From Candidatus Parcubacteria bacterium (lineage in GTDB: Bacteria > Patescibacteriota > Minisyncoccia > JAHIHE01 > JAGLIN01), in the NCBI GenBank assembly GCA_023132875.1, contig JAGLXN010000017.1, positions 22,142 through 86,141 of the forward strand: DNA of 64,000 nucleotides, read 5' to 3'. Under the pieces are notes generated by a model, which saw only the letters and a list, made by a program, of their open reading frames with translations, ran no database searches and was not told the origin of the DNA. Of this stretch, positions 6,152 to 63,532 are shown in pieces (positions within the stretch are counted from its first letter, which is position 1; every line of letters starts with the position of its first letter). A program made the translations under genes and the position numbers.

Positions 6152-6601
6152 ATGTCTCAAACTAAAATTACAAATACAAAGCAGATATCGTACAACAAAA
6201 TTAAAGTGATGACATTTGGAACTTTTGACATTTTTCATCCGGGACATGAAAGTTTTTTGAAGCAAGCGAGAAAGTTTGGAGATTATTTGATTGTTGTTAT
6301 TGCCAGAGATAAAACAGTTGGAATAGTCAAGAAAAGATTTTCACAAAATAATGAAATTAATAGGCAGCGGGCTGTAGTAAAAAGCAATTTAGCAGATAAG
6401 GTAATTCTTGGAAGCTTGAAAGATAAATATCAAGTGATTAAAAAATATCAGCCGGAAATTATTTGTCTGGGTTATGATCAAACAGTATTTATAGAAAATT
6501 TACGGGAGAAGTTAAAAGAGTTTGGCATGGAAAAAACCAAGATTGTAAAATTAAAGCCTTATTGTTCAGAGAAATATAAATCGTCTAAATTGAGAGATTA
6601 A
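6152..6601 (+). CDS. Cytidylyltransferase-like HxGH nucleotidyltransferase (RibL-type FMN adenylyltransferase-like; NMNAT-like not excluded)
   Basis: GTFDIFHPGH motif; the true start is probably at Met 6209 (MTFGTFD). Confidence 0.55.
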   Translation: MSQTKITNTKQISYNKIKVMTFGTFDIFHPGHESFLKQARKFGDYLIVVIARDKTVGIVKKRFSQNNEINRQRAVVKSNLADKVILGSLKDKYQVIKKYQPEIICLGYDQTVFIENLREKLKEFGMEKTKIVKLKPYCSEKYKSSKLRD

Positions 6602-6611
6602 ATTTTTTAAT

Positions 6612-6657
6612 AGCACGTAGACGAGCACTGACTAAAAATGCAAATAAACACAGATAT
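6612..6657. repeat. Repeat family E copy (AACACTGA / AACACAGA 8-mer units) 12 bp after the stop
   Basis: GACGAGCACTGACTAAAAATGCAAATAAACACAGATA; related copies at 8026 and 16757. Confidence 0.5.
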
Positions 6658-6760
6658 TATTACTAACTTAATGGTATTCTAGAAATGATTTACACTGACG
6701 AAATTAAAACAATGCAACCGATTGTTTTAAATGGTGATTTAACAAAAATTAACTAAAATT

Positions 6761-8014
6761 ATGTTAGATATAAAATTTATAAGAGAAAATCTGAATATTG
6801 TAAAGGAAGAGATTAAAAAAAGAGGGATGAAAATTGACTTAGATTCTTTTCTTGATTTAGACGAGCAAAAAAGAGAACTTCAACAGGAAGTGGAAAATTT
6901 AAGAAAAAAACAGAATGAGGCAAATAAAACTATTTCTCAAAGTAAAGATAAAAAGATTATTTCGAAAATGAAAGAGGTTAAATTAAAATTGTCTGAGTTG
7001 GAACCAAGGTTAAAAAATTTAGAGAAAAAACTAAAAGATATTTCACTACAACTACCGAATATAACTCATGAAAGTGTGCCAGTCGGATCGGATGAATTGG
7101 GAAATGTTGTTGTGAAAAAATGGGGAGAAAAACCAAAGTTTGATTTTTCGCCGAAAGAGCATTTTGAAATAGAAAGCGTTAAAAATTTAATTGACACCAA
7201 AAGAGGCGCAAAGGTTTCAGGGACGAGATTTTGGTATTTGAAAGGCGACTTGGCAAGATTGGAATTTGCTCTAATGCAATACGCTCTTGAATTTTATTCC
7301 AATAAAGGATTTGAACCGATGATTGTGCCAATGCTGGTCAGAGAGCCGGCGATGTATGGAACAGGATTTTTTCCGGCGGAGAAAAATGAAATTTACAATG
7401 TTAACGCTGATGAGGATAATTTATTTTTAGTCGGAACAGCGGAAGTTCCACTAGCGGCTTACCATATGAATGAAGTTTTGGATTTAGAAAACGGACCTAA
7501 AAAATATATGGGCTATTCAAGCTGTTTTCGCAGGGAGGCTGGAACTTACGGCAAAGATATAAAAGGGATTTTGCGCGGGCATCAATTTAATAAAATTGAA
7601 ATGTTTATTTTTTGTAAACCGGAAGAATCTTGGAATTTGCATGAAGAATTATTAAAATACGCGGAAGAATTTTTACAGTCTTTGAATTTGCATTATCAAG
7701 TTTTAAATATGTGCACGGGCGATATCGGCGCGCCGAACGCAAAAAAATACGATATTGAAACGTGGATACCGGGGCAAAATAAATACCGCGAGACGCATTC
7801 TTGTTCTAACGATACTGATTTTCAAGCGCGGAGATTAAATTGTAAGTTTACTGATAAGGATGGAAAGAAAAAATTTGTCCATACTTTAAATAACACCGGT
7901 TGCGCTGATCTGCGAGTTTTGATCGCCATTCTTGAAAACTACCAACAAAAAAACGGCACCATTATCGTGCCGGAGGTTTTAAGGAAATGGATAGGAAAGG
8001 ATGTTATTGAATAA
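6761..8014 (+). CDS. serS: Seryl-tRNA synthetase
   Basis: N-terminal coiled-coil arm; class II motifs FRREAG and GTAEVPL. Confidence 0.9.
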   Translation: MLDIKFIRENLNIVKEEIKKRGMKIDLDSFLDLDEQKRELQQEVENLRKKQNEANKTISQSKDKKIISKMKEVKLKLSELEPRLKNLEKKLKDISLQLPNITHESVPVGSDELGNVVVKKWGEKPKFDFSPKEHFEIESVKNLIDTKRGAKVSGTRFWYLKGDLARLEFALMQYALEFYSNKGFEPMIVPMLVREPAMYGTGFFPAEKNEIYNVNADEDNLFLVGTAEVPLAAYHMNEVLDLENGPKKYMGYSSCFRREAGTYGKDIKGILRGHQFNKIEMFIFCKPEESWNLHEELLKYAEEFLQSLNLHYQVLNMCTGDIGAPNAKKYDIETWIPGQNKYRETHSCSNDTDFQARRLNCKFTDKDGKKKFVHTLNNTGCADLRVLIAILENYQQKNGTIIVPEVLRKWIGKDVIE

Positions 8015-8025
8015 TTCGACACAGA

Positions 8026-8122
8026 CGAACACTGACTAAAGGCACTGACAAACACAGATAAAAATTTAAAATAATCAGTGTTCATTTGTGCCTTTGGTCT
8101 GTGTTTATCAGTGTGCTATTAA
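8026..8122. repeat. Repeat family E, full inverted-repeat copy filling the serS-hydrolase spacer
   Basis: Arm CACAGACGAACACTGACTAAAGGCACTGACAAACACAGAT and inverted arm ATCAGTGTTCATTTGTGCCTTTGGTCTGTGTTTATCAGTGTG. Confidence 0.55.
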
Positions 8123-8128
8123 TTTAAT

Positions 8129-9031
8129 ATGGACAATCCCCAAACCAAAATCTCTGAAAAACAAATTCAAATCAATGGTTTGAATATAAATTATAAAACA
8201 ATCGGCGATGGGAAAATCCCGATTGTTTTGTTGCATGGGTGGGGAGTGTCAAGCGATAAATATACAGAATTAATAAAAATATTATACTCAATACTCAATA
8301 CTCAATATTCAATATTCATCCTTGATCTTCCCGGATTTGGAAAAAGCGACGAACCGAAAGAAAACTGGAATTTGGATGATTATGTTGAGTTTGTGGATGA
8401 ATTTATTAAAAAGACAAGTAGAAAAGGCGGATTTGAGTTAGTTAAAAATATATTAGAGAAAATGCAAGAAGGCTCCACAGGGCTATCGCCACAATGGAGC
8501 CAACGATCTTCTTGTCGACAAAAACTAGTCTTAATCGGTCATTCGTTTGGCGGGAGAATTGCGATAAAATATGCTGTGAAATGCCCTGAAAAAATTGATA
8601 AATTGATTTTAACCGGAGCGGCGGGAATTAAGCGTAAATTGACCGTAAAACAGAAAATATTCTTTATTTTGGCAAAAATAGGAAAGAAAATTTTTTCTTT
8701 GCCGTTAATTAATAATTTAGAAAAATACGCGCAAAAAATATTATACAAAGCTACTAAGGAAAAAGATTATTACCAAGCCAGCCCGAGGATGAAAGAAGTA
8801 ATGAAAAATGTTTTAGATGAAGACTTAACAGATTATTTAGATAAAATAAAAAATCACACTTTATTAGTTTGGGGAAAAGAAGACAAAACCACGCCTTTAG
8901 CTGATGGAAAAATTATGAATGAGAAAATTGAGAATTCCAAGTTAATTGTGGTTGATGACGCTAATCATAGTTTGCCATATCAGAAGGCTGAGAAGTTTGT
9001 GAAAATTGTGGAAAAGTTTATAAAAAAATGA
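8129..9031 (+). CDS. Alpha/beta-hydrolase fold protein
   Basis: HGWG oxyanion region and GHSFGG nucleophile elbow; carries two in-frame inserts (a heptamer array and a GC-rich hairpin). Confidence 0.75.
   Translation: MDNPQTKISEKQIQINGLNINYKTIGDGKIPIVLLHGWGVSSDKYTELIKILYSILNTQYSIFILDLPGFGKSDEPKENWNLDDYVEFVDEFIKKTSRKGGFELVKNILEKMQEGSTGLSPQWSQRSSCRQKLVLIGHSFGGRIAIKYAVKCPEKIDKLILTGAAGIKRKLTVKQKIFFILAKIGKKIFSLPLINNLEKYAQKILYKATKEKDYYQASPRMKEVMKNVLDEDLTDYLDKIKNHTLLVWGKEDKTTPLADGKIMNEKIENSKLIVVDDANHSLPYQKAEKFVKIVEKFIKK
8286..8320 (+). repeat. In-frame heptanucleotide tandem array (ACTCAAT x3, ATTCAAT x2) inside the hydrolase ORF
   Basis: Seen directly; encodes ILYSILNTQYSIF. Confidence 0.7.
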
Positions 9032-9317: not shown

Positions 9318-10898
9318 ATGTCAATTATTTTAATTACAATATTAATATTATTTCTCATCAAAATTGTCCGTGATAGCTTGTTTTGTGTTTGGCTTTGGCA
9401 GGTGAAAGAATATCGGATAGATCGGATGAAATCTTATTTGAGAGACGAGAAAAGTATTATTTATAAAAATATTAATTATTTATTTGTTTTGATTTTATTT
9501 TTTATTTGCATTTTGGTTCCACAGCCATTCGGGACTATGGAACTAATGATTCTTATTTATTTAACGCTTTTATTTTTTACTTTTACTTTTTACCAAATTT
9601 TAATAGAAATAAAAGATAGAATTTTAAAAAGACCAAAGTTGACTTTTAAGATAATTCTAATATTTTTCATAGAAGCCACCTTTTATTTTTCGTTCTTTGT
9701 ATTTTACTGGATTCCCGCATTCGCGGGAATGACAAGACCTGCGGTCTTGATCCTACTATTACTATTTATTTATCTCATCACTCCTTTTTTAATTGCTACA
9801 ATTATTTTGTTAACAAATCCATTTTTTAATTTCCAAAAAAGAATAATAAAAAAAAAAGCCACCGAAAAAATGAAGGGATTGAAAAAAGTAAAAGTTATCG
9901 GTATTACGGGCAGTTACGGAAAGACAAGCACGAAAGAATTTCTATATGCGATATTGAACCAGAAATATAAAGTTGTAAAAACAGAAGGGAATAATAATAC
10001 GAATATCGGCGTGGCTTATACTGTTTTAAATAAAGTGAGTGATAAATATGATTATTTTATCTGTGAAATGGGCGCTTATAAAATTGGCGAAATCGCAGAA
10101 ATTTGTAAAATAGTAAAACCGGAAGTTGGAATTTTAACAGGAATTAACGAACAGCATATTGATTTATTTGGGTCTATTGAGAATACGGTTAAAGCGAAGT
10201 TTGAATTGATTGAGGCGTTGCCAGAGAACGGATTGGCGGTAATAAATGAAAAATTAAAAAATCAAAATGGAAAATTACAATTTAAAATTAAAAATGTTAA
10301 ATATTTTTCTTTGAACAATGTAAATGATATTAAAGTTTGTCAGGATTATGTAGGGTTTAATTATAAGAACTATAAATTTAAAACTAATCTTCTTGGCAAG
10401 CATTATATAGAAAATATTTTATCTGCTATAATGATAGCAGAATGTTTGGGAATAAGTTTGGATGAAATTGCAAAAGCAGTAGAGAAAATAAAACCGACTG
10501 AATTTATGATAAGAAAATTATACGGTCCAAATAATTCTATTTTTATTGATGACAGTTATAGCGCAAATCCTGATGGCGTAATCGCGGCGCTTGATTATTT
10601 AGATGAAGCGTATCAAGATTATAAAAAAATAATTGTTTTTCCAGGGATAATTGAATTGGGAAACAAGTCAAAAGAAGTGCATCAAAAATTATTTAGTAAA
10701 ATAGATAAAATTTGCGACTTTGCTTATATACTGAATACAGAATACAGAATACAGAATACTAATAACAAATTTGTTTTTGAGAAGGATTTTAATAAAGTGG
10801 CGAGAATGCTGAAAAATAATCTCAACGAAAAATCTGTTGTTCTTTTTGAAAGCCGGGGAGCGGGAGTGGCGATGGGAAAAGTAAAAATAGAAAAATAA
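9318..10898 (+). CDS. MurF-like Mur ligase with an N-terminal polytopic membrane domain of about 190 aa
   Basis: Mur ligase P-loop GITGSYGKTSTKE and C-terminal DDSYSANP signature; the N-terminus is strongly hydrophobic. Confidence 0.7.
   Translation: MSIILITILILFLIKIVRDSLFCVWLWQVKEYRIDRMKSYLRDEKSIIYKNINYLFVLILFFICILVPQPFGTMELMILIYLTLLFFTFTFYQILIEIKDRILKRPKLTFKIILIFFIEATFYFSFFVFYWIPAFAGMTRPAVLILLLLFIYLITPFLIATIILLTNPFFNFQKRIIKKKATEKMKGLKKVKVIGITGSYGKTSTKEFLYAILNQKYKVVKTEGNNNTNIGVAYTVLNKVSDKYDYFICEMGAYKIGEIAEICKIVKPEVGILTGINEQHIDLFGSIENTVKAKFELIEALPENGLAVINEKLKNQNGKLQFKIKNVKYFSLNNVNDIKVCQDYVGFNYKNYKFKTNLLGKHYIENILSAIMIAECLGISLDEIAKAVEKIKPTEFMIRKLYGPNNSIFIDDSYSANPDGVIAALDYLDEAYQDYKKIIVFPGIIELGNKSKEVHQKLFSKIDKICDFAYILNTEYRIQNTNNKFVFEKDFNKVARMLKNNLNEKSVVLFESRGAGVAMGKVKIEK
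9709..9753. repeat. Repeat family B hairpin (GGATTCCCGC-ATTC-GCGGGAATGAC plus AGACC-TGCG-GGTCT) inserted in-frame in the murF-like ORF
   Basis: Palindrome read directly; translates to IPAFAGMTRPAV. Confidence 0.6.
10733..10760 (+). repeat. In-frame heptamer tandem array (GAATACA x3, GAATACT) in the murF-like ORF
   Basis: Seen directly. Confidence 0.7.
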
Positions 10899-12490: not shown

Positions 12491-13519
12491 ATGAATATTA
12501 AAGAAATAACAAATAAATCCCAATGGGAAAATTTTGTTCAAGAAAACAAAGAAAGTACTTTTCTGCAATCTTGGAATTGGGGAGAATTCAATAGAAACAC
12601 AGGAGAAAAAATCTGGCGACTTGGAGTTTTTGACAATGAAGAACTTTTAGCAGTCGCGCTAGTTATAAAAGTAAACGCAAGGAGAGGATCATTTTTATTT
12701 GTTCCGCAGGGACCAATAATAAAGGTATTCAGTATTCAGTATTCAGTATTCAGTATATTAAATGAATTTTTTGATTATTTAAAAGATCTTGGAATAAAAG
12801 AAAGGGTTGGATTTATTCGCGTTAGTCCGATTTTAAAAAATACTGAAGAAAATTTGAATATTTTTGAAAAAGCAGGATTTAGAAACGCGCCGATTCATAT
12901 GATGCACCCAGAAACAACTTGGCTTTTAGATATTACAAAAAGCGAGGATGAAATTTTAAAAGGAATGAGAAAAACGCATAGAAATTTAATTCGTCGCGCG
13001 GCAAAAGAAGATGTTAAAATTATACAAAGCACGGATGAAGAATATCTTAAAGCGTTTTATGATATTCATATGGAAACTGTCCGGCGGCATAAATTTGTCC
13101 CGTTCCCCTATGATTATATAAAGAGCGAAACTGACGCGTTTAAAAACGACGATCAAATAAGCATATTTTCCGCAAAATATAAAGGTGAAATAATTTCATC
13201 CGCTATTATAATATTTTATGGAGAACAAGCTTTTTATCATCATGGCTCATCATCGTCAAAGTATTATAAAATTCCATCATCATATTTAAATCTTTGGGAA
13301 GCAATTAAGGAAGCAAAAAAAAGAGGAAAGAAGAAATTTAATTTTTACGGTATTGTTGAAAATAAGCCGAAACATCCTTGGGCTGGATTGTCAAAATTTA
13401 AAAAAGGATTTGGCGGACACCAAGAGGAACTATTACATTGCCAGGATTTGCCGTTGAATAGAAAATACGCGATTACATGGGTTGTTGAAACAATAAGGAA
13501 AGTTAGAAGAGGATATTGA
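12491..13519 (+). CDS. FemAB-family peptidoglycan interpeptide-bridge peptidyltransferase-like protein
   Basis: N-terminal QSW.WGEF signature region; GNAT-like size. Confidence 0.55.
   Translation: MNIKEITNKSQWENFVQENKESTFLQSWNWGEFNRNTGEKIWRLGVFDNEELLAVALVIKVNARRGSFLFVPQGPIIKVFSIQYSVFSILNEFFDYLKDLGIKERVGFIRVSPILKNTEENLNIFEKAGFRNAPIHMMHPETTWLLDITKSEDEILKGMRKTHRNLIRRAAKEDVKIIQSTDEEYLKAFYDIHMETVRRHKFVPFPYDYIKSETDAFKNDDQISIFSAKYKGEIISSAIIIFYGEQAFYHHGSSSSKYYKIPSSYLNLWEAIKEAKKRGKKKFNFYGIVENKPKHPWAGLSKFKKGFGGHQEELLHCQDLPLNRKYAITWVVETIRKVRRGY
12724..12751 (+). repeat. In-frame heptamer tandem array (GTATTCA x4) in the FemAB-like ORF
   Basis: Seen directly; encodes SIQYSVFSI. Confidence 0.7.
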
Positions 13520-13523
13520 TGGT

Positions 13524-13566
13524 GAATCAGGAATCAGGAATCAGGAATTATGAATTAGGAATTAAG
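13524..13566. repeat. GAAT-core heptamer array (GAATCAG x3, GAATTAT, GAATTAG, GAATTAA) right after the FemAB-like stop
   Basis: Seen directly. Confidence 0.7.
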
Positions 13567-13629
13567 AACTTTCTATTTTTATAAAAATGCTTAGATGTTT
13601 ATTAGAAATGTTTATTGTAATAGATAAAA

Positions 13630-13656
13630 GATTCTGAAACAAGTTTAGAATGACAA
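13630..13656. repeat. Repeat family B hairpin GATTCTGAAACAAGTTTAGAATGACAA
   Basis: Same hairpin as at 61007 and inverted at 60857. Confidence 0.6.
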
Positions 13657-13720
13657 AATTTGTAATTTTTAAAATAAATTCCATAGTTTCATATAACATA
13701 CAATCCATAATTCATGATTC

Positions 13721-14752
13721 ATGATCCGTAATTTCAAGTTTAGAAGAAAAAGAATAAAACCATGGCAGCGAAAACCAAGGATTTTTGCGAGTCACAAACC
13801 TATTTTTTTTAAAAAAAATAAAAGCGGTTCTGCTAAAAATCTTAAAAGGGGATTATTGATAGCGTTTGTTTTTTTTGTCGCGTATTTTATTTTTTTCTCG
13901 GAGTTTTTTATAATTAAAAAAATAGATATAAATGGAAACAAAACCATTTCCAATAAAAACATAGAAAAAATCATAAAAAATGAAAACTCAAATCCGATTT
14001 TAGCAATTTTTCCTGGAAATAATTTTTTTCTTACTAACGAGGAAAAAATAGAAAAAAAACTGCTTAGCGAGTTTTCAGAGATCAAAACAATAACAATTAA
14101 AAAAAAGCTTCCAGATACTATAAAAGCGGAGATTGTAGAAAAAAATCCTCTTATTCTTTGGTGCAGAACTGAAAGCTGTTATTATCTTGACACTGAAGGA
14201 ATAGCTTTTATGGCTGAAAGCAGTGATACAGAAGCATATAAAGACAAAAAATTTATAAAAATTATAGAAGAGGTAAAAATTAAAGAAGAGATAGAAGATG
14301 AATTAGAAAGAGAGAAAGAAGAAAAGGAAACTAAGCCAGTGTTTTTAGATAATATTCAAAATACAATTGATTCTGAAATTTCTGATAATCCAGAGCATGA
14401 TGAAAGAGAAAATGATAAAAAAAATGAAGACAAAAATATCATACTAGAACCAATAAAAATAAATGATAAGATCGCGAATGAAGATTTTATAAATTTTGTT
14501 TTTAAATTAGATAATAGCATTAAAAGCGACACTGATATAAAAATTAAATATTATAAGACAAAGGGAGTAAAAACAAGAGAGATAATCGCGTATTCAGATA
14601 AAAACATAAGAATTTATTTTAATACTGCAGATGACGCGAAATTACAAACAACATATCTAAAAGATTTTATGTCTAAAGGAATTGGTAAAAATGAAATAAA
14701 TACATTAGAATATATATACCTTAAATCTGGAAATAAGATTTTTTATAAATAA
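13721..14752 (+). CDS. ftsQ: FtsQ/DivIB-like cell division protein (TM + POTRA) with an acidic insertion
   Basis: TM segment followed by a POTRA-like pattern I.INGN...LPDTIKAEIVEKNPLILWC. Confidence 0.55.
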   Translation: MIRNFKFRRKRIKPWQRKPRIFASHKPIFFKKNKSGSAKNLKRGLLIAFVFFVAYFIFFSEFFIIKKIDINGNKTISNKNIEKIIKNENSNPILAIFPGNNFFLTNEEKIEKKLLSEFSEIKTITIKKKLPDTIKAEIVEKNPLILWCRTESCYYLDTEGIAFMAESSDTEAYKDKKFIKIIEEVKIKEEIEDELEREKEEKETKPVFLDNIQNTIDSEISDNPEHDERENDKKNEDKNIILEPIKINDKIANEDFINFVFKLDNSIKSDTDIKIKYYKTKGVKTREIIAYSDKNIRIYFNTADDAKLQTTYLKDFMSKGIGKNEINTLEYIYLKSGNKIFYK

Positions 14753-16360
14753 TTGAAATTTAAAATAATTAAAATGAAAAAAATACGAACAAGATTTGCG
14801 CCAAGCCCGACGGGATATCTTCATGTTGGAAGTTTAAGAACTGCGTTATATAATTATCTGTTTGCCAAACATAATAACGGCGATTTTATCCTGCGTATTG
14901 AAGATACGGATAAAGCAAGGTTTGTGGAGGGTTCTATTGAAAATTTAGTGAAAATATTGGACCTAATCGAGCTGAAATATAATGAAGGTGTATTTGTAGA
15001 TAATGACGGAAAAATCTCTCAAAAAGGCAATTTTGGGCCATATATACAATCTGAAAGGCTAGAAATATATAAAAAATATGTTGACAAGCTAATAAAAAAT
15101 GATTATGCATATTTTTGCTTCTGTAGTCAAGAACGGCTGGAAGAAATGAGAAAAGAACAGCAAGCGCAAAAAATGGCTCCTAAGTATGACGGAAAGTGCA
15201 GGGGACTGGATAAAAAAGAAATTCAAAGGCTTCTCGATAAAAAAACTCCCTATGTTGTTCGTCTAAAAACTCCGCAGGAAGGATTTACCGAATTTGATGA
15301 TCTAGTTTATGGAAAAATAAAAATTGAAAACAAGGTAATTGATGATCAAGTTTTGATGAAGTCCGATGGATTTCCAACATATCATTTGGCAAATGTCATT
15401 GATGATCATTTAATGGAAATTTCACATGTCATTCGGGGAGAGGAATGGCTTCCATCAACTCCAAAGCATGTTATTTTATATAAAGCGTTTGGGTGGGATA
15501 TGCCAGAGTTTGCTCATCTACCACTTCTTCTTAATCCCGATAAAAGCAAATTGAGTAAACGTCAGGGCGATGTCGCAGTAGAAAATTATCTAAAAAAAGG
15601 ATATTTACCAGAAGCATTGTTAAACTTTATATTATTACTTGGTTGGAATCCTAAAACTGAAGAAGAAATTTTTTCATTTGATGAAATGATAAAAAGATTT
15701 GATTTGTCTGGAGTTAATAAAACGGGAGCTATTTTCAGTGTAGAAAAACTGGATTGGATAAATGGAACGTATATTCGTTGTATGCCGCTTGAAGAACTTA
15801 CCGAACTTTGTGTTCCATATTTGATTGAGGCAGGATTGATAGAAAGAATTATGAATTATGAATTAAGAATAAAGAATAAAATTCAAAATTCAAAATTCTC
15901 CTCCCGAGGCGGATCAGCCTTGGGCTGGAAGATTCAAAATTCTGATAAGGAAGTAGATTTTGATTATTTAAAAAAAGTTATTGCGCTTGAACAGGAACGG
16001 ATGAAGAAATTGAGTGAGATAGGGGAGCTGGTAAAATTTATCTTTGTTGATAAATTAGATTATGATAAAGATTTACTGGTATGGAAAAAAATGAGCTTTG
16101 AAGAGGTAAAAAATAATTTAGAATTAGCTTATGATGAATTAGAAAAAATAGACGAGAAAGATTTTGTGAAAAATAATTTGGAAGAAGTTTTGAGAAATTT
16201 AATGGGACGAGAGGGGATTAAGACGGGAGAATTGTTATGGCCCTTGCGAGTAGCTTTGACTGGCCTGAAAGGATCACCAGGACCGTTTGAAGTGGCAAGC
16301 GTTTTGGGAAAGGGAAAAGCTTTAAAGAGGATCAGAAAGGTAATTGAATTATTGAGATAA
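14753..16360 (+). CDS. gltX: Glutamyl-tRNA synthetase
   Basis: HIGH (PSPTGYLHVGS) and KMSKS-like (KLSKR) motifs; contains an in-frame repeat insertion. Confidence 0.9.
   Translation: MKFKIIKMKKIRTRFAPSPTGYLHVGSLRTALYNYLFAKHNNGDFILRIEDTDKARFVEGSIENLVKILDLIELKYNEGVFVDNDGKISQKGNFGPYIQSERLEIYKKYVDKLIKNDYAYFCFCSQERLEEMRKEQQAQKMAPKYDGKCRGLDKKEIQRLLDKKTPYVVRLKTPQEGFTEFDDLVYGKIKIENKVIDDQVLMKSDGFPTYHLANVIDDHLMEISHVIRGEEWLPSTPKHVILYKAFGWDMPEFAHLPLLLNPDKSKLSKRQGDVAVENYLKKGYLPEALLNFILLLGWNPKTEEEIFSFDEMIKRFDLSGVNKTGAIFSVEKLDWINGTYIRCMPLEELTELCVPYLIEAGLIERIMNYELRIKNKIQNSKFSSRGGSALGWKIQNSDKEVDFDYLKKVIALEQERMKKLSEIGELVKFIFVDKLDYDKDLLVWKKMSFEEVKNNLELAYDELEKIDEKDFVKNNLEEVLRNLMGREGIKTGELLWPLRVALTGLKGSPGPFEVASVLGKGKALKRIRKVIELLR
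15846..15948. mobile_element. Repeat family A element (GAAT heptamers plus GC-rich core CCTCCCGAGGCGGATCAGCCTTGGGCTGG) inserted in-frame in gltX
   Basis: Core matches the copies at 36568, 50467 and 63030; encodes MNYELRIKNKIQNSKFSSRGGSALGWKIQNS. Confidence 0.65.
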
Positions 16361-16756: not shown

Positions 16757-16862
16757 CAAATCAGTGTTTATTTGTATATTTGTCGGCACTTATCGGTATG
16801 CTATTGAATAATTAGACACAGAAAAACACTGACTTCCGGCATTGATGAACACAGATACTAAT
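16757..16862. repeat. Repeat family E copy (AACACWGA units in inverted arrangement)
   Basis: ATCAGTGTTTATTTGT ... GACACAGAAAAACACTGACTTCCGGCATTGATGAACACAGATA. Confidence 0.5.
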
Positions 16863-16929: not shown

Positions 16930-18270
16930 ATGGTTATAACTAAACACAAAAAGCTAACTATTACATTATTACTATTGGCGTCTTTTGTTGTGTCGCCATT
17001 TTTTGGCATAGAAATAAAGCAAAGCAAAGCAGATCTAGTAGAAGAAATTGAAGACCAAATAAACGAAAAAAGTGAAACAGTAAAAAATCTTGAAAATCAA
17101 GCAGAAGAATATAAAGATCTTATAAGAGGGCTTCGGATAGAAGAACAGAGTCTAGAAAATGAAATTGAGCTTCTTGACGCGCAAGTCGCTCAGCTTAATT
17201 TAGAGATTCAAACAACGCAGACTCAGATAGAACAAACAAATCTTGAAATAAATAATTTACTGCTAAGAATCCAGATAAAGGAAGAAGAAATTGAAAAACA
17301 GAAAGATATTCTGAAAAATTTACTGCGAGAGATAAATGCTTATGATAATGAAACAACGCTTGAAATTCTTCTTAAAAGCAAAGAGTTCTCAGAATTTCTA
17401 AATCAAGCTGAATATATGAACACAGTTGGAGGAAAAATTAAAGATGCTCTTGACGAGCTTAATTCAATAAAGCAAGAATTGGAAGAGAAAAAAGAAGAAA
17501 TGAAAGAAAAGAAAAATCAGCTTGAAGAATTAAGCAAAAAATTGTTGGATCAAAAAGAAATAGTAAACGCGCAAAAAAACGCGAAAGAAGCCTTGCTAAA
17601 AGAAACAAGAGGGAAAGAATATAAATACCAGGATTTACTATTCAATGTCAGGAATCAAAGAAAAACGATTTTAGGCGACATAAACAGGCTTAAAAGAGAA
17701 ATGCAGGTTGAGATCGCAAAAATCGCAGCTATGGCAGAAAGGCCTTCGGAAAATCTTGCGTCCACAAGCTGGTATTTTTCCCAAAATAATTCAAGATGGA
17801 AAGATATGACAATCGGACTTTCAAATTCTTCCGTTGATGATTATGGATGCGCTATTTCGTCCGTAGCAATGGTATTTAAATATTATGGGATAGACATAGA
17901 TCCTGGACGGCTTTCAAAACAGCCTATATTCTATTATGATTTAATTGTTTGGCCCAAACAGTGGAGATTTTTGGATTTAATCAAAAATTCATATCATAAA
18001 TCAGGCGGACTTACTAAGGCTGATTGGAATTTAATAGATCGTGAAATCGCCAGCGGACATCCAGTAATTGTATTTATTAAAGCGCTAGGAAGAGGCGCTG
18101 GACATTATGTCGTAATTCACAGCAAAGACTCAAAAGGATATATTGTCCATGATCCCGTCAGATGGAACGGCCAGAGCGGAGCTAATATATATCTTTCAAC
18201 AACAAGGAAATATATAGGTTCTATATATAAAACAAACACTGTTGTTGACCAAATGATCATTTATCATTGA
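16930..18270 (+). CDS. Secreted coiled-coil protein with a C-terminal papain-like cysteine peptidase domain (C39-like); PcsB/EnvC-like architecture
   Basis: Signal/TM segment, about 250 aa of coiled coil, then DYGCAISSVAMV...GHYVVIHS (Cys/His dyad). Confidence 0.6.
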   Translation: MVITKHKKLTITLLLLASFVVSPFFGIEIKQSKADLVEEIEDQINEKSETVKNLENQAEEYKDLIRGLRIEEQSLENEIELLDAQVAQLNLEIQTTQTQIEQTNLEINNLLLRIQIKEEEIEKQKDILKNLLREINAYDNETTLEILLKSKEFSEFLNQAEYMNTVGGKIKDALDELNSIKQELEEKKEEMKEKKNQLEELSKKLLDQKEIVNAQKNAKEALLKETRGKEYKYQDLLFNVRNQRKTILGDINRLKREMQVEIAKIAAMAERPSENLASTSWYFSQNNSRWKDMTIGLSNSSVDDYGCAISSVAMVFKYYGIDIDPGRLSKQPIFYYDLIVWPKQWRFLDLIKNSYHKSGGLTKADWNLIDREIASGHPVIVFIKALGRGAGHYVVIHSKDSKGYIVHDPVRWNGQSGANIYLSTTRKYIGSIYKTNTVVDQMIIYH

Positions 18271-34738: not shown

Positions 34739-34744
34739 AGAATT

Positions 34745-34847
34745 ATATTGTTAAATTGTTGTATTGTTAAATTGTTGTATTGTTTTGCCTATTGCTTATT
34801 CAACGATTTAATCCAACAATACAGCAATGTAACAATATAACAATAAT
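34745..34847. repeat. Repeat family C, large palindromic copy (ATTGTTGTATTGTT x2 ... AACAATACAGCAATGTAACAATATAACAAT) upstream of secY
   Basis: Seen directly. Confidence 0.6.
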
Positions 34848-35285: not shown

Positions 35286-35373
35286 AAAATCATTTTAACA
35301 TATAAACATACTAACATTTTAACATACTAACATTTATTGTTAAAATATTTGATTAAGCAAATAATATAACAAT

Positions 35374-36132: not shown

Positions 36133-36489
36133 CTAAAAAACCAATCCCTCTTCACGGGCACCTTCAGCTACTGCTCTTACTCTTCCGTGATATTTATAGC
36201 CTCCTCTATCAAAAATAACTCTGCTTATATTTTTTTCCTGAGCTTTTTTTGCAATTAATTTTCCAACTTCTTTCGCAGCGTCAATCTTTATTTTCTTTCC
36301 TTTAATCTCTTTTTCGCTTGCGCTTGCCAAGGTAATTCCTAAATCATCATTAATCAGTTGAACAAATAATCCCTTATTGCTTCTAAATAAATTTAAACGC
36401 GGAGTTTCTGCTGTACCAATAATCTTAGAGCGAACTCGTTTATGCCTTCTTGTCTTAGCTTGTCTTTTTATTATTTCCTTATTTTTCAT
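36133..36489 (-). CDS. rplR: 50S ribosomal protein L18
   Basis: C-terminal [24 protein letters not shown]. Confidence 0.9.
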
Positions 36490-36545
36490 AAAAATATTTT
36501 GTTATAAAATTCTTAAAGTTTCTAATTTCCAAAATAATTTGAAAA

Positions 36546-36615
36546 TTTTGTCATTGAAAATTGATTGCCGGTCCAAGGCTGGTCCGCCTCGGGCGGAAAA
36601 ATTAGAAATTGAAAA
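36546..36615. mobile_element. Repeat family A copy (TTTTGTCATTGAAAATTGATTG-CCGGTCCAAGGCTGGTCCGCCTCGGGCGG-AAAAATTAGAAATT) in the rplR-rplF spacer
   Basis: Near-identical over about 70 nt to the copy at 50443..50512. Confidence 0.65.
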
Positions 36616-36616
36616 T

Positions 36617-37165
36617 TTACTCTCCTGTTCCCGCGACTTTCTTTCCAACTTTCCTTCTTACATGCTCTCCTAAATACCTTATCCCTTTTCCTTTATATGG
36701 TTCTGGCTTCTTTTTACTTCTTATATCAGCAGCAATTTGTCCTACAAGCTGCTTATTTATTCCAGCTATGGTAATAATATTTTTTTCAACATTAAATTCT
36801 ATTCCTTTTGGAGCTTTAAATATTACTAAATGTGAAAAGCCAAGACTAAGTTCCAGATCATTTCCTTTTTGAACTACCTTATACCCAACTCCTTGTATTT
36901 CAAGTTTTTTTTCAAATCCTTTTTCCGCTCCTTCAATCATATTAGCAATTAATGTTCTAGAAAGTCCCCAAATAGCATAATTTTTTTTTGTATTATTTTT
37001 TACAGATACTATAATATGATTGTCTTTAATCTCAATAGACATTTTTGAATCAATTTTATCAGTAAGCTCTCCTTTGGGCCCCTTGACAATAACTTCATTA
37101 TCTTTACTAACAGAAAATGTGACTCCTGATGGTATGTTTATTGGCTGTTTTCCTATTTTACTCAT
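36617..37165 (-). CDS. rplF: 50S ribosomal protein L6
   Basis: Conserved L6 sequence, tandem alpha/beta domains. Confidence 0.9.
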   Translation of the reverse strand: MSKIGKQPINIPSGVTFSVSKDNEVIVKGPKGELTDKIDSKMSIEIKDNHIIVSVKNNTKKNYAIWGLSRTLIANMIEGAEKGFEKKLEIQGVGYKVVQKGNDLELSLGFSHLVIFKAPKGIEFNVEKNIITIAGINKQLVGQIAADIRSKKKPEPYKGKGIRYLGEHVRRKVGKKVAGTGE

Positions 37166-37607: not shown

Positions 37608-37705
37608 GAATATTGAATTATGAATTTAGAATTACGAATTACGAATTACGAATCGACGATATTTTACAATCTTCATGATTCATAATTCATAATTCATAAT
37701 TCATC
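37608..37705. repeat. GAAT-core heptamer arrays in inverted orientation (GAATTAC x3 ... ATAATTC x3) in the rpsH-rpsN spacer
   Basis: Seen directly. Confidence 0.7.
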
Positions 37706-50037: not shown

Positions 50038-50113
50038 TGGAGCGGGTAACGGGAATCGAACCCGTGTCTTCAGCTTGGAAGGCTGACATAATAAGCCACT
50101 ATACGATACCCGC
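50038..50113 (-). tRNA. tRNA-Gly (anticodon UCC), CCA encoded
   Basis: Manual fold: acceptor GCGGGTA/TACCCGC, anticodon stem TCAGC/GCTGA with loop CTTCCAA, T-arm ACGGG-TTCGATT-CCCGT, 3' CCA. Confidence 0.85.
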
Positions 50114-50305: not shown

Positions 50306-50442
50306 TATTAAGACTTGCGCGTTTCACAATTCGGAGCGTCCTAACTATTTTAAACTTTGTTTTGAATTTGTTATTTTGGTCATTGTAATTTATTTGTTAT
50401 TTGTGATTTTGAATTTATGATTTATCCAGTTGTTTAAAAATT

Positions 50443-50512
50443 TAGTCATTGGAAATTGATTGTCAACCCAAGGCTGATCCGCCTCGGGCGGAAAAATTAA
50501 AAATTTTATAAT
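50443..50512. mobile_element. Repeat family A copy (TTTAGTCATTGGAAATTGATTG-TCAACCCAAGGCTGATCCGCCTCGGGCGG-AAAAATTAAAAATT) downstream of the ATPase gene
   Basis: About 70-nt match to 36546..36615. Confidence 0.65.
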
Positions 50513-60856: not shown

Positions 60857-61032
60857 TGTCATTCTGAACTCGTTTCAGAATCTTTCTGTTGCTACATTGA
60901 ACAATCCTATAAAGCATCAAACGCTTTACTAAATTGAAAATACAATAATTGTAATATGATTCTTGGCGTTGTTGCAAATAGGATAAATTATACCTAACAG
61001 AAAATAGATTCTGAAACAAGTTCAGAATGACA
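60857..61032. mobile_element. 176-bp MITE-like element flanked by inverted family-B hairpins (TGTCATTCTGAACTCGTTTCAGAATC ... GATTCTGAAACAAGTTCAGAATGACA)
   Basis: Both terminal hairpins seen directly in opposite orientation. Confidence 0.6.
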
Positions 61033-61050
61033 AAGCTAAATTAATTCATC

Positions 61051-62692: not shown

Positions 62693-63532
62693 TTATTTTT
62701 TCAAAACCATCCACCCAAATTTTATCGTCGCGTTATAAATTCGTTTTATTCTTCGCGGATTCAAGATCAATCGCCACAGCCATTCCAATCCCAATTTTTG
62801 GAAAATCAATGGCGCGCGTTTGACTTCACCAGATATAAAATCAAACGATCCGCCGACTCCAATTGCCAGCTTTACGCTTGGCAATTTTTTTAAGTTCTCA
62901 TAAATCCATTCTTCCTGTTTAGGAACGCCAAACGCAACGAGTATTATATCTGGTTTTGTTCTATTTATCCGCTGAATTAATTCTTCATTTAACTTATGAA
63001 ACTTATTATTATAAGAATTTGGAATTTTTCCTCCCAAGGCGGACCAGCCTTTGGCTGGGAATTTGGAATTTTGAGATTTATTTGGTATTTGGTATTTGGT
63101 ATTTGGTATTTCAAACCACATTCCCTCCTCCGCGCCCACGATATTTAAACGATCATACTTTTTAGATAAAACTTTTGCGGCTTCTCCCGCTATCCCTTCT
63201 CCCGCTCCTAATAAATATATCTTTTTACCTTTTATAAGTTCAGATTCACAGATTTTATAAATTAAATTAATACCCGTAATTTTTTCGGGCAATGTTTTAT
63301 GATTTAAAAATTTGTTCGCAAATAAAATTCCTGTTCCATCCGGAATAATAATATCGGCTTCATTTATAATTTTTTTAAAGTGATTATTTTTTCGAGCTTC
63401 AACAACCATTTCTGGGTTTAGTGTTACAATATAATGTTGTTGATCCGATAATAAAAAACTCTTGATTTTTTCAAGAACTTCTTTTGTTGTAATCTTATTT
63501 ACTTTTACATCTAATATTTTTTCATAATTCAT
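62693..63532 (-). CDS. WecB/TagA/CpsF-family glycosyltransferase carrying an in-frame family A repeat insertion
   Basis: N-terminal WecB/TagA-like region IIIPDGTGI; insertion encodes EIPNTKYQIPNKSQNSKFPAKGWSALGGKIPNS. Confidence 0.65.
   Translation of the reverse strand: MNYEKILDVKVNKITTKEVLEKIKSFLLSDQQHYIVTLNPEMVVEARKNNHFKKIINEADIIIPDGTGILFANKFLNHKTLPEKITGINLIYKICESELIKGKKIYLLGAGEGIAGEAAKVLSKKYDRLNIVGAEEGMWFEIPNTKYQIPNKSQNSKFPAKGWSALGGKIPNSYNNKFHKLNEELIQRINRTKPDIILVAFGVPKQEEWIYENLKKLPSVKLAIGVGGSFDFISGEVKRAPLIFQKLGLEWLWRLILNPRRIKRIYNATIKFGWMVLKK
63015..63112. mobile_element. Repeat family A element (core CCTCCCAAGGCGGACCAGCCTTTGGCTGGG plus ATTTGGT x4 heptamers) in-frame inside the wecB-like gene
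   Basis: Core matches 15899, 36568 and 50467. Confidence 0.65.

What the first reader, a model, noticed from the sequence alone, without database searches (positions are those of the whole stretch)
15846..15948. Palindromic repeat element (family A) inserted in-frame in glutamyl-tRNA synthetase
About 100 bp made of GAATTAT/GAATAAA/ATTCAAA heptamers plus a GC-rich core CCTCCCGAGGCGGATCAGCCTTGGGCTGG interrupt gltX without breaking the frame. The extra peptide is ...IKNKIQNSKFSSRGGSALGWKIQNS. The same core occurs at three other sites (36568, 50467, 63030), one of which is also in-frame in a gene. This mirrors Rickettsia palindromic elements, which insert into protein-coding genes and add peptide segments.
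Basis: seen in the sequence. Interest (0 to 1): 0.7.

Follow-up and report, generated by a model that had tools for sequence, protein, structure and literature searches.

The report
Mobile 30-base double-hairpin insert
A 30-base GC-rich DNA element that folds into two small hairpins has been pasted, in frame, into a surface loop of the essential enzyme glutamyl-tRNA synthetase. The same element is scattered through genes and spacers of many ultra-small (Patescibacteria/CPR) bacteria and sits next to the gene for a tiny GIY-YIG nuclease that may move it.

Summary
The 29-nt core occurs four times in the window and 0 times in shuffles. Two copies lie in frame inside genes (gltX and a WecG/TagA glycosyltransferase).

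The mobile unit is not the ~100-bp heptamer-plus-core block. It is an exact 30-nt unit, T-CCGCC-CRA-GGCGG-A-YCAGCC-TKG-GGCTGR.

- The closest orthologues lack precisely these 10 codons at both coding sites, with no target-site duplication.
- In gltX the AT-rich heptamer tract is older, variable, and shared with orthologues that lack the core.
- The two hairpins are supported by compensatory changes.
- The same unit is found in more than 116 stretches from GTDB species genomes, almost all labelled Patescibacteria. About a third lie in reading frames, in both orientations and in all phases.
- The variant that would create a TGA stop is avoided in the phase where it would be read, so the insert appears to be translated.

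Unexpected finding: 13 of the 17 closest relatives of a small (80-86 aa) GIY-YIG nuclease carry the element 6-34 nt upstream of their start codon, and one more carries it 192 nt upstream. The element lies inside an orphan tRNA 5' fragment, directly upstream of an intact tRNA (mostly Ser).

Best reading: a non-autonomous mobile double-hairpin element, probably partnered with that nuclease. It is analogous to Rickettsia palindromic elements and to mitochondrial GC clusters or double-hairpin elements, but it belongs to none of them.

The parts
15899..15928 (+). 30-nt double-hairpin unit (T + 29-nt core) inserted in frame in gltX. Encodes SSRGGSALGW. Same orientation as the gene, phase 0.
   Evidence: Exact 30-nt gap in the orthologue DNA (L117) between codons TTC and AAA, with no duplication. 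CM score 51.8 bits.
15846..15898 (+). AT-rich period-7 tract (GAATTAT/GAATAAA/AAAATTC) upstream of the unit. An older, variable in-frame tract, not part of the mobile unit. It is the target context.
   Evidence: Present without the core in P0002, P0004, P0005, P0010, P0060 and others, and absent in most orthologues. TRF period-7 arrays.
15929..15943 (+). Continuation of the heptamer tract (AAGATTC AAAATTC T) downstream of the unit.
   Evidence: Aligns to AAA ATT CAA AAT TCT of the empty orthologue site.
14753..16360 (+). gltX (glutamyl-tRNA synthetase), the host gene. The insert lies in a hypervariable loop at the start of the anticodon-binding region.
   Evidence: AF2 model: mean pLDDT 90.1, and the only long low-confidence segment is model residues 366-381, in the insert region.
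36568..36597 (-). Copy 2 of the unit. Intergenic, between rplF (36617-37165) and rplR (36133-36489).
   Evidence: CM score 48.1 bits. ORF map. Shares an ~92-nt AT-rich context (80% identity) with copy 3 (family D6).
50463..50492 (-). Copy 3 of the unit. Intergenic, 42 nt after the stop of ORF 50534-53047(-) and ~350 nt before tRNA-Gly (50038-50113).
   Evidence: CM score 56.2 bits..
63029..63058 (+). Copy 4 of the unit. In frame in the WecG/TagA-family gene 62693-63532(-), antisense to the gene. Encodes PAKGWSALGG.
   Evidence: Orthologue P0122 (80% identical) lacks exactly these 10 aa. DNA (L201) shows a clean 30-nt gap between TTC and CAA. CM score 53.3 bits. Pfam PF03808.

Best explanation
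The feature is a copy of a 30-bp, GC-rich, non-autonomous mobile DNA element. Its two adjacent hairpins are CCGCC-CRA-GGCGG and YCAGCC-TKG-GGCTGR, preceded by a T.

Shown:
- The element inserts as a precise 30-bp block, without target-site duplication and in either orientation.
- In this genome it sits at unit boundaries of AT-rich period-7 tracts (AAATTC^AAAATT).
- It is exactly 10 codons long, and it lacks stop codons in all six frames for the C..G variant and in four of six for the T..A variant.
- Copies that land in tolerant surface loops of proteins persist. The depletion of the stop-creating T..A variant in phase 0 argues that they are translated.
- In gltX it adds SSRGGSALGW to an already hypervariable loop of the anticodon-binding region.

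Inferred:
- The element acts at the DNA level (hairpin or cruciform), not as an oriented RNA signal.
- It is most likely mobilised in trans by a small single-domain GIY-YIG nuclease. That nuclease's gene cassette has the layout: orphan tRNA 5' fragment - double hairpin - GIY-YIG ORF - intact tRNA.
- The window's four copies would then be solo derivatives of that system.
- The insert in GluRS is probably neutral.
For: Insertion:
- Orthologue protein and DNA alignments show exact 30-nt gaps at both coding sites, with no duplicated target.

Family:
- Four copies in the window against 0 in shuffles.
- At least 116 stretches in GTDB species genomes, almost all labelled Patescibacteria. Two IMG/VR contigs also carry it.
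- Flanks are unconserved except for T(-3), Y(-2), T(-1).

Structure:
- Y15-R29 covaries (C-G 69, T-A 48, other 4).
- On 40 distinct variants the two-hairpin model gives 97.3% of cells paired and 5 pairs with double changes, reached by 0 of 500 shuffles. The single long hairpin that ViennaRNA prefers gets no support.

DNA-level, orientation-free behaviour:
- Coding copies: 25 sense, 22 antisense.
- Intergenic copies: 27 co-oriented, 26 anti-oriented, 10 between convergent genes, 8 between divergent genes.

Translation:
- After in-silico excision, 38 copies have at least 50 open codons on both sides.
- In phase 0, where the T..A variant creates TGA, only 1 of 22 copies is T..A, against 40% overall. 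The gltX copy is the odd T..G form.

Loop location:
- No PDB counterpart for query residues ~363-403.
- The AF2 model has pLDDT below 50 only there among long segments.
- The same loops in orthologues carry other, independent inserts.

GIY-YIG link:
- 7 of 11 small GIY-YIG ORFs in the core-bearing loci lie within 3-142 nt of a core.
- In the reverse test, loci were chosen by GIY-YIG protein similarity only. 13 of the 17 closest relatives have the element 6-34 nt upstream of the ATG and one more has it at 192 nt. Seven are in each orientation. None of the next 63 has one upstream of the gene; one (L181) has a weak match downstream.
- One gene is bracketed by inverted copies (L005).
- More distant GIY-YIG relatives have different GC-rich hairpins at the same position (L134, L144, L151, L158, L180-L182).
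- Pfam GIY-YIG E=7e-17.
Against: - No GIY-YIG gene lies in the 64-kb window, and the source genome could not be searched further.
- The GIY-YIG relatives were seeded from proteins found next to cores, so part of the linkage may be shared ancestry of one cassette rather than repeated association.
- No biochemical precedent is known to me for a GIY-YIG domain moving a 30-bp hairpin block.
- The source of the inserted copy and the joining chemistry are unknown.
- The element and the cassette might simply share a liking for tRNA-proximal or structured DNA.
- Translation of the insert is inferred from stop avoidance, not observed.
- Conservation of a 30-mer across distant CPR lineages could also reflect a host function.
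Confidence: 0.55

Rival explanations
1. A ~100-bp Rickettsia-palindromic-element-like MITE, made of heptamer arms plus a GC core, inserted as one piece into gltX.
For: The upstream heptamers GAATTAT... and AAAATTC... can pair as a long AT hairpin (z = -4.96). All four window copies sit in heptamer-like context. Copies 2 and 3 share ~92 nt at 80% identity.
Against: Orthologues with the heptamer peptide but without the core differ by exactly 30 nt. The flanks of >116 copies elsewhere are unrelated. The core appears in either orientation relative to the same flanks (window copies 2 and 3 versus L002 and L059; L005).
Confidence: 0.07
2. The element is mobile, but something other than the GIY-YIG nuclease moves it. 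Candidates are a hairpin-recognising HUH/Y1 transposase (IS200/IS605 or RAYT type), or capture as filler during break repair or template switching. On this view the GIY-YIG/tRNA association reflects a shared target preference or hitch-hiking.
For: Precise insertion without duplication and dependence on hairpins are hallmarks of single-strand Y1 transposition (established knowledge). Most copies (about 94%) are not next to a GIY-YIG gene. Many lie within 60 nt of tRNA genes even without the nuclease gene.
Against: No recurrent transposase-like family was found among ORFs within 2.5 kb of cores; the largest cluster covered 5 loci and was a housekeeping gene. The position of the element 6-34 nt from the GIY-YIG start in 13 of 17 relatives is too regular for chance co-targeting. 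Hairpin type changes with GIY-YIG clade.
Confidence: 0.25
3. It is a host-beneficial signal kept by selection, for example a DNA-uptake sequence, a binding site for a nucleoid or replication protein, or an RNA hairpin for termination or stability. On this view it is not a selfish mobile element.
For: The 30-mer is nearly identical across distant CPR lineages. The hairpins are maintained by compensatory change. CPR bacteria depend on DNA uptake (established knowledge).
Against: It appears as clean 30-nt insertions rather than by point mutation. There is no orientation bias relative to transcription and no enrichment between convergent genes. It sits inside essential coding regions in both orientations. 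Density is only ~1 per 16 kb here. There is no Rfam match.
Confidence: 0.1
4. The insert is removed before the protein is made (a mini-intron or other intervening sequence), so GluRS is unaffected.
For: Patescibacteria are unusually rich in introns in rRNA and tRNA genes (PMC13011429, PMC11270868). The element is a compact structured unit.
Against: Length is always 30 nt. Phase 0 is preferred (22 of 38). The stop-creating T..A variant is nearly absent in phase 0 (1 of 22 versus 40% overall). It occurs antisense in genes as often as sense. In-silico excision does not restore any tRNA gene (0 of 122).
Confidence: 0.03

Closest known systems
Rickettsia palindromic elements (RPE-1 to RPE-10)
   Same: A dispersed palindromic repeat in a small, AT-rich genome of a host-dependent bacterium. 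It inserts in frame into unrelated housekeeping genes and adds a peptide to surface regions. The mobilising enzyme is unknown (PMC10969869).
   Different: RPEs are ~100-150 bp, each with its own ORF-like peptide, and are confined to Rickettsia. This element is 30 bp, consists of two short hairpins, is read in all six frames, is spread across Patescibacteria, and is physically linked to a GIY-YIG cassette.
Mitochondrial GC clusters (yeast) and double-hairpin elements (Allomyces); repetitive hairpin-forming elements of sponge mtDNA
   Same: Short GC-rich hairpin or double-hairpin blocks scattered through very AT-rich genomes, including insertions into genes. They show merging and nesting of units. 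Endonucleases have been suggested as movers (PMC4478555 and Paquin et al. 2000 cited there; PMC2800124).
   Different: Those are organellar. Yeast clusters show short putative target duplications (AG/TAG), and no dedicated nuclease gene is linked to them. This element is bacterial, shows no duplication at two resolved sites, and has a linked nuclease gene.
REP / REPIN elements with RAYT transposases
   Same: Hairpin repeats of 20-40 bp present in many solo copies, with the same repeat flanking a single-copy nuclease or transposase gene that is thought to move them. L005 has a GIY-YIG gene bracketed by inverted copies.
   Different: REPs are extragenic, carry a GTAG or CGTC tag, and pair with HUH Y1 transposases (PMC3733652, PMC2817692). 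Here a third of copies are intragenic, there is no such tag, and the linked gene is a GIY-YIG nuclease embedded in a tRNA-gene duplication.
Free-standing GIY-YIG homing endonuclease genes (for example the seg genes of T4; I-TevI-type enzymes)
   Same: A GIY-YIG catalytic domain, a small selfish gene cassette inserted at a specific conserved host site, and cleavage expected a short distance from the insertion point (PMC2988022, PMC3664794).
   Different: The proteins here are only 80-86 aa and lack a DNA-binding domain. The cassettes regenerate the interrupted tRNA gene and leave an orphan 5' fragment. They also carry a hairpin element that occurs solo elsewhere in the genome.

Membership tests
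Rickettsia palindromic elements | Length ~100-150 bp with an extended palindrome | tested here: not met
   The inserted unit is exactly 30 nt at two empty/filled comparisons.
Rickettsia palindromic elements | In-frame insertion into protein-coding genes, adding a peptide | tested here: met
   gltX and wecG copies. 38 of 122 copies elsewhere lie in long open frames.
Rickettsia palindromic elements | Sequence similarity to the RPE consensus and restriction to Rickettsia | not tested
   No RPE consensus was available for alignment. The hits here are almost all labelled Patescibacteria.
MITE (IS-derived) | Terminal inverted repeats matching an IS, plus a target-site duplication | tested here: not met
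   No duplication at either resolved site. The unit is two internal hairpins with no distinct terminal repeats.
REP/REPIN-RAYT | Extragenic location | tested here: not met
   31-38% of copies lie in ORFs.
REP/REPIN-RAYT | Conserved GTAG or CGTC tetranucleotide at one end | tested here: not met
   The position logo shows T(-3), Y(-2), T(-1), then CCGCC.
REP/REPIN-RAYT | Associated Y1 (HUH) transposase gene flanked by the repeat | tested here: inconclusive
   No recurrent transposase cluster near cores, but whole genomes were not available. The linked gene found is GIY-YIG.
Mitochondrial GC clusters / double-hairpin elements | Short GC-rich block folding into two stem-loops within an AT-rich genome | tested here: met
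   Window GC is 28-35%, while the four window core matches are 62-71% GC. The two-hairpin covariation was reached by 0 of 500 shuffles.
Mitochondrial GC clusters / double-hairpin elements | Organellar (fungal mitochondrial) host; common descent | tested here: not met
   Host contigs are bacterial, with r-protein operon, gltX and tRNAs. This is analogy only.
GIY-YIG homing endonuclease cassette (applies to the linked gene, not to the window) | GIY-YIG catalytic domain with conserved Tyr/Tyr/Arg/His/Glu | tested here: met
   PF01541 E=7e-17. Invariant Y5, Y16, G18, R26, H30 in all 9 sequences, and also E61/E62 in the 4 closest.
GIY-YIG homing endonuclease cassette (applies to the linked gene, not to the window) | C-terminal DNA-binding domain giving site specificity | tested here: not met
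   The proteins are 80-86 aa and consist of the catalytic domain only. The match to the group I intron endonuclease model is below cut-off (18.7 versus 56 bits).

The most novel reading that the evidence does not exclude
The 30-bp double hairpin is the cis element, or the cleavage-site patch, of a previously undescribed GIY-YIG-driven mobile system of Patescibacteria. In this reading, minimal 80-86-aa nuclease cassettes invade tRNA genes (mainly tRNA-Ser), regenerate the tRNA and leave an orphan 5' fragment. The same nuclease seeds orientation-free, frame-preserving 30-bp insertions throughout the genome, including essential genes. This would give a bacterial, genetically tractable model for how GC clusters, double-hairpin elements and RPE-type mini-repeats move and remodel proteins.
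Probability: 0.35. Interest if true: 0.85.

Novelty: new variant of a known kind. Interest (0 to 1): 0.72.

Why it matters
Small palindromic repeats that enter genes in frame (Rickettsia RPEs, mitochondrial GC clusters and double-hairpin elements) have been known for decades, but nobody has identified what moves them. This case offers three things.

- The unit is minimal and sharply delimited: 30 bp, two hairpins, with exact empty sites.
- It is conserved across a large bacterial radiation.
- There is a concrete candidate partner, a single-domain GIY-YIG nuclease in a stereotyped tRNA-linked cassette. That makes the mechanism testable with oligonucleotides and one small protein.

It also shows that proteins of genome-reduced CPR bacteria, including an aminoacyl-tRNA synthetase, are being remodelled by recurrent 10-residue insertions in the same loops. 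This matters for annotation, for phylogenetic marker alignments and for structure prediction in these lineages.

Tried and rejected
- **tRNA D-loop intron.** Many copies seemed to interrupt tRNA D-loops. Excising the 30 nt in silico and running ARAGORN restored no tRNA (0 of 122). The flanks are orphan 5' fragments lying beside intact tRNAs.
- **Known RNA family.** The Rfam gathering scan of the window found only two tRNAs. A permissive scan of four GIY-YIG loci gave nothing at the cores.
- **Single long hairpin.** The ViennaRNA minimum-free-energy fold has no covariation support.
- **Flanking direct repeats as target-site duplications.** In gltX and wecG they are pre-existing heptamer units.
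- **More diverged copies in the window.** None found with filters off.
- **Recurrent neighbouring transposase.** BLAST clustering of 556 ORFs within 2.5 kb gave no family in more than 5 loci.
- **First GIY-YIG alignment (A2).** It was too divergent for the locus search, so a tighter one (A3) was used.
- **Literature.** Searches for the sequence, the peptide, CPR repeats, and GIY-YIG with tRNA-Ser found no description.
- **Viral vector.** Only 2 IMG/VR contigs carry the core. Not pursued.
Full report
**1. Observation**

It holds period-7 AT-rich units, then T plus CCTCCCGAGGCGGATCAGCCTTGGGCTGG (15900-15928), then two more heptamers. All of this lies inside a 535-aa ORF (14753-16360, +) with an open frame. 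The ORF is a glutamyl-tRNA synthetase: PDB GluRS chains match at E = 3e-116 to 1e-113, and its homologues carry Pfam PF00749/PF19269.

With up to 3 mismatches the core occurs at 50463-50491(-) and 63030-63058(+), against 0 matches in 100 shuffles. A fourth, more diverged copy is at 36568-36596(-). A covariance model scored over every position finds exactly these four, at 48-56 bits.

- Copy 4 is in frame in ORF 62693-63532(-), a WecG/TagA-family glycosyltransferase (Pfam E = 7e-54). It is antisense to the gene and encodes PAKGWSALGG.
- Copies 2 and 3 are intergenic: rplF-rplR, and downstream of an 837-aa ORF about 350 nt from tRNA-Gly.

**2. What was inserted**

I aligned 120 GluRS homologues.

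- Most have a short segment here: LIEKVS-SIKYQVLSTGEE.
- A subset (P0002, P0004, P0005, P0010, P0060 and others) has an extra heptamer-encoded peptide, ITNSKLQITNKSQNSKFKIQNS.
- Only the window protein and its 100%-identical twin P0001 have SSRGGSALGW in addition.

At DNA level, the orthologue L117 (encoding P0002, 83% identical) reads TCA AAA TTC | AAA ATT CAA AAT TCT. The window reads TCA AAA TTC | TCC TCC CGA GGC GGA TCA GCC TTG GGC TGG | AAG ATT CAA AAT TCT. This is a clean 30-nt insertion with unambiguous boundaries and no target duplication.

The same holds for WecG.

- P0121 (95% identical) keeps the insert.
- P0122 (80% identical) lacks exactly 10 aa. Its DNA (L201) shows TCC AAA TTC | CAA ATT, against TCC AAA TTC | 30 nt | AAA ATT in the window.

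So the mobile unit is T plus the 29-nt core. The heptamer tract is an older, variable tract that serves as the landing site. Both coding insertions sit at a heptamer unit boundary (AAATTC^MAAATT), with the core in opposite orientations. Relative to minimal orthologues the GluRS loop is 21 aa longer: 11 aa from heptamers and 10 from the core.

**3. Anatomy**

Nearly all are labelled Patescibacteria (Moran-, Magasanik-, Uhr-, Falkow-, Wolfe-, Nomurabacteria, Paceibacter). A few records carry other automated labels, and one (L043, labelled Syntrophales) looks like a partial chance match.

Flanks are unrelated between loci apart from T at -3 (105 of 121), T or C at -2 (100 of 121) and T at -1 (117 of 121).

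The unit is T-CCGCC-CRA-GGCGG-A-YCAGCC-TKG-GGCTGR.

- Y15 covaries with R29: C-G 69, T-A 48, other 4.
- On 40 distinct variants, including those found independently next to GIY-YIG genes, the two-hairpin structure has 97.3% of cells paired. Five pairs carry changes on both sides, for example CCGCC/GGCGG, CGGCC/GGCCG, GGGCC/GGCCC, and TCAGCC/GGCTGA versus TCATCC/GGATGA. No shuffle out of 500 reached these values, and slid controls collapsed.
- The single long hairpin preferred by ViennaRNA has no covariation support.
- No Rfam family matches.

**4. Behaviour across genomes**

- Of 122 copies, 38 lie in frames open for at least 40 codons on both sides, against 65% of random positions. A simple gene call puts 47 inside ORFs: 25 sense and 22 antisense.
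- Intergenic copies show no orientation bias relative to neighbouring genes: 27 co-oriented, 26 anti-oriented, 10 between convergent genes, 8 between divergent genes. This argues against an oriented RNA signal or terminator and for a DNA-level element.
- All six reading phases are used, but phase 0 is favoured (22 of 38). It gives SA(Q/R)GGPALGW in sense and PAQGWSA(S/L)GG in antisense.
- The T..A variant creates TGA in phase 0 in either orientation. It makes up 40% of all copies but only 1 of 22 phase-0 copies when coding context is judged after excising the element. The gltX copy is the unusual T..G form that avoids the stop. This is evidence that the insert is read by ribosomes rather than removed.
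- The same loops are hit repeatedly. WecG orthologues carry independent cores at other positions and phases (L202 60 bits, L203, P0130, P0156). The GluRS loop carries unrelated inserts in P0012, P0024, P0090 and P0097.

**5. Position in GluRS**

Query residues ~363-403 have no counterpart in solved GluRS structures. The break falls between residues 340 and 346 of T. thermophilus 1J09, and between 377 and 381 of 4GRI.

An AlphaFold2 model built with 41 homologues has mean pLDDT 90.1. Its only long low-confidence segment is model residues 366-381 (ORF 373-388). That segment covers the heptamer peptide and the first half of the insert. It lies between short strands 356-358 and 385-387, and between helices 339-352 and 396-404. 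The insert therefore extends the tip of a surface hairpin or loop at the start of the anticodon-binding region. Distance from the tRNA was not measured.

**6. An unexpected partner**

Small GIY-YIG ORFs (80-108 aa) occur in 10 of the core-bearing loci, and 7 of the 11 such ORFs lie within 3-142 nt of a core. Pfam confirms GIY-YIG at E = 7e-17.

In the reverse test I searched metagenome contigs with the protein alone: 554 relatives were found and the best 80 kept. I then scanned those 80 with the covariance model.

- 13 of the 17 closest relatives have the element 6-34 nt upstream of the start codon, and one more has it at 192 nt. Seven are in each orientation.
- None of the next 63 has it upstream of the gene. 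One (L181) has a weak match (23.2 bits) downstream of the gene.

The architecture is stereotyped:

- an orphan 5' fragment of a tRNA, identical to the 5' end of the tRNA downstream;
- the double hairpin;
- 4-16 more nt of the tRNA;
- about 10 nt of AT-rich leader;
- the GIY-YIG ORF;
- 2-7 nt;
- an intact tRNA, mostly Ser, also Cys and Tyr.

The hairpin sits at tRNA position 12/13 (GGCC^GAGTGG; L121, L122, L124-L126, L133), at 20/21 (L129), or in the anticodon loop (L136, L007). It always lies a few nucleotides before the point where tRNA homology ends. In L005 the gene is bracketed by two such fragments carrying the element in opposite orientations.

More distant GIY-YIG relatives have the same layout next to other tRNAs, but with different GC-rich hairpins (L134, L144, L151, L158, L180-L182).

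Copies that have an orphan tRNA fragment and an intact tRNA ~50-60 nt downstream but no ORF (L115, L093, L050, L065, L063, L082) look like decayed cassettes.

No GIY-YIG gene lies in the window itself.

**7. Mechanism**

Shown:
- precise 30-bp insertion;
- no duplication;
- both orientations;
- hairpin covariation;
- frame-neutral length;
- stop avoidance;
- recurrent hits in tolerant loops and heptamer tracts;
- tight linkage to a GIY-YIG/tRNA cassette.

Inferred: the element is a non-autonomous DNA element whose hairpins, extruded or in single-stranded DNA, are recognised by the single-domain GIY-YIG nuclease. Either the nuclease excises and inserts the block, or the block is placed at the nuclease's cleavage sites and thereby destroys them. 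The four window copies would be solo derivatives, and the GluRS insert a tolerated passenger.

I put about 0.9 on 'mobile 30-bp insertion, translated', and about 0.4-0.5 on the GIY-YIG partnership. The joining chemistry is unknown.

**8. Comparison and novelty**

Functionally this works like Rickettsia palindromic elements (in-frame peptide additions; PMC10969869). It also resembles mitochondrial GC clusters and Allomyces double-hairpin elements, which are GC-rich hairpin blocks in AT-rich genomes with endonucleases suspected as movers (PMC4478555). The solo-repeat-plus-linked-nuclease logic recalls REP/RAYT (PMC3116915, PMC2817692).

It fails defining features of each family: size and taxon for RPE, terminal repeats and duplications for MITEs, extragenic location, GTAG tag and Y1 transposase for REP, and organellar host for GC clusters.

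I found no description of the element, its peptide or the GIY-YIG/tRNA/hairpin cassette in the searchable literature. That corpus excludes many subscription papers.

I classify it as a new variant of a known kind, with a substantial chance (~0.35) that it marks a new GIY-YIG-based mobile system.

Noticed in passing
L121-L137, L005, L007, L019, L062, L074, L091 (other genomes and metagenomes): A stereotyped cassette: orphan tRNA 5' fragment, then a GC-rich double hairpin in either orientation, then an 80-86-aa GIY-YIG ORF, then an intact tRNA (mostly Ser) 2-7 nt after the stop. The orphan fragment is identical to the 5' end of the intact tRNA. About 35 of 80 GIY-YIG relatives are followed directly by a tRNA gene. 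Types seen include Ser, Cys, Tyr, Leu, Ala, His, Ile, Val, Asn, Gln and Arg.
   Followed up: partly
L115, L093, L050, L065, L063, L082, L094, L042: A ~23-nt copy of a tRNA's own 5' end, carrying the 30-nt element in its D-loop, lies ~33-60 nt upstream of the intact tRNA with no ORF between them. In L094 a tRNA-Val is split in its D-arm by a second complete tRNA-Val plus the element. These may be decayed cassettes. The origin of the duplication is unexplained.
   Followed up: partly
window, e.g. 8284-8318, 10728-10759, 12725-12756, 13523-13568, 37615-37653, 37672-37704, 34743-34845, 35291-35336: The genome is full of short period-7 and period-8 AT-rich tandem arrays (ATACTCA, ATACAGA, GTATTCA, GAATCAG, GAATTAC, TTCATAA, AACAATAT, CATATTAA), mostly at gene boundaries. 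Some are in inverted pairs (13523-13568 with 13704-13727; 37608-37652 with 37679-37702). Similar tracts are translated inside variable loops of GluRS and WecG.
   Followed up: partly
window 13618-13657 and 60995-61034; L074: A second small repeat family, GATTCTGAAACAAGTTYAGAATGACAAA (hairpin TCTGAA/TTCAGA), at 90% identity between the two window copies. A similar hairpin (CCTGAATCAAGTTCAGGATGAC) interrupts the GIY-YIG gene in L074.
   Followed up: no
window 6597-6661, 8001-8065, 16798-16862: Three copies of a 65-nt intergenic motif (..GACACAGACGAACACTGACT..ACACAGATA..; 66-82% identity). The third lies upstream of ORF 16930-18270. It may be a promoter or regulatory box.
   Followed up: no
window 36519-36610 and 50414-50505: Copies 2 and 3 share ~92 nt (80% identity), including an AT-rich arm ..TTTGTCATTGAAAATTGATTG next to the core. 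The same arm (caat..caatgac) flanks cores in L015, L018 and L047. In L002 and L059 the core is in the opposite orientation relative to that arm.
   Followed up: partly
GluRS orthologues P0012, P0024, P0025, P0032, P0090, P0097 (alignment): The same GluRS loop carries other, unrelated inserts in other lineages, for example KTCPREALG, ARIASPTRQLANNHSNKQSDAGGEQ and PAQILPARLAFGDSKTNGQSKKCGGQ. This suggests further GC-rich element families use the site.
   Followed up: no
L021 (5320-5374) and L051 (1976-2056): Cores with extra sequence nested inside or next to the hairpin-2 loop (CCAGCCTT[gcagtgtgcgcctt]GGGCTG..). L051 also has a fully palindromic variant (CAGCCAAAGGCTGATCAGCCTTTGGCTG). This recalls the merging and shuffling of units reported for yeast GC clusters.
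   Followed up: no
L020 (6698-6727): A T..A variant in phase 0 puts a TGA into an otherwise continuous frame (..FSAQGGSALG*), with 158 and 119 open codons on either side. It may be a truncated or split gene caused by the element.
   Followed up: no
window ~18000: Cumulative GC skew peaks near 18 kb, and gene orientation switches there from + to -. This could be convergent transcription or a replication landmark.
   Followed up: no
window 47881-48356: A 189-nt tandem repeat (2.5 copies, 82% matches).
   Followed up: no
L119, L120 (IMG/VR contigs): Two predicted viral contigs (53 and 66 kb) each carry one full-scoring copy of the element (56.4 bits). This could be a route for spread between lineages, or they may be mis-binned CPR DNA.
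   Followed up: no
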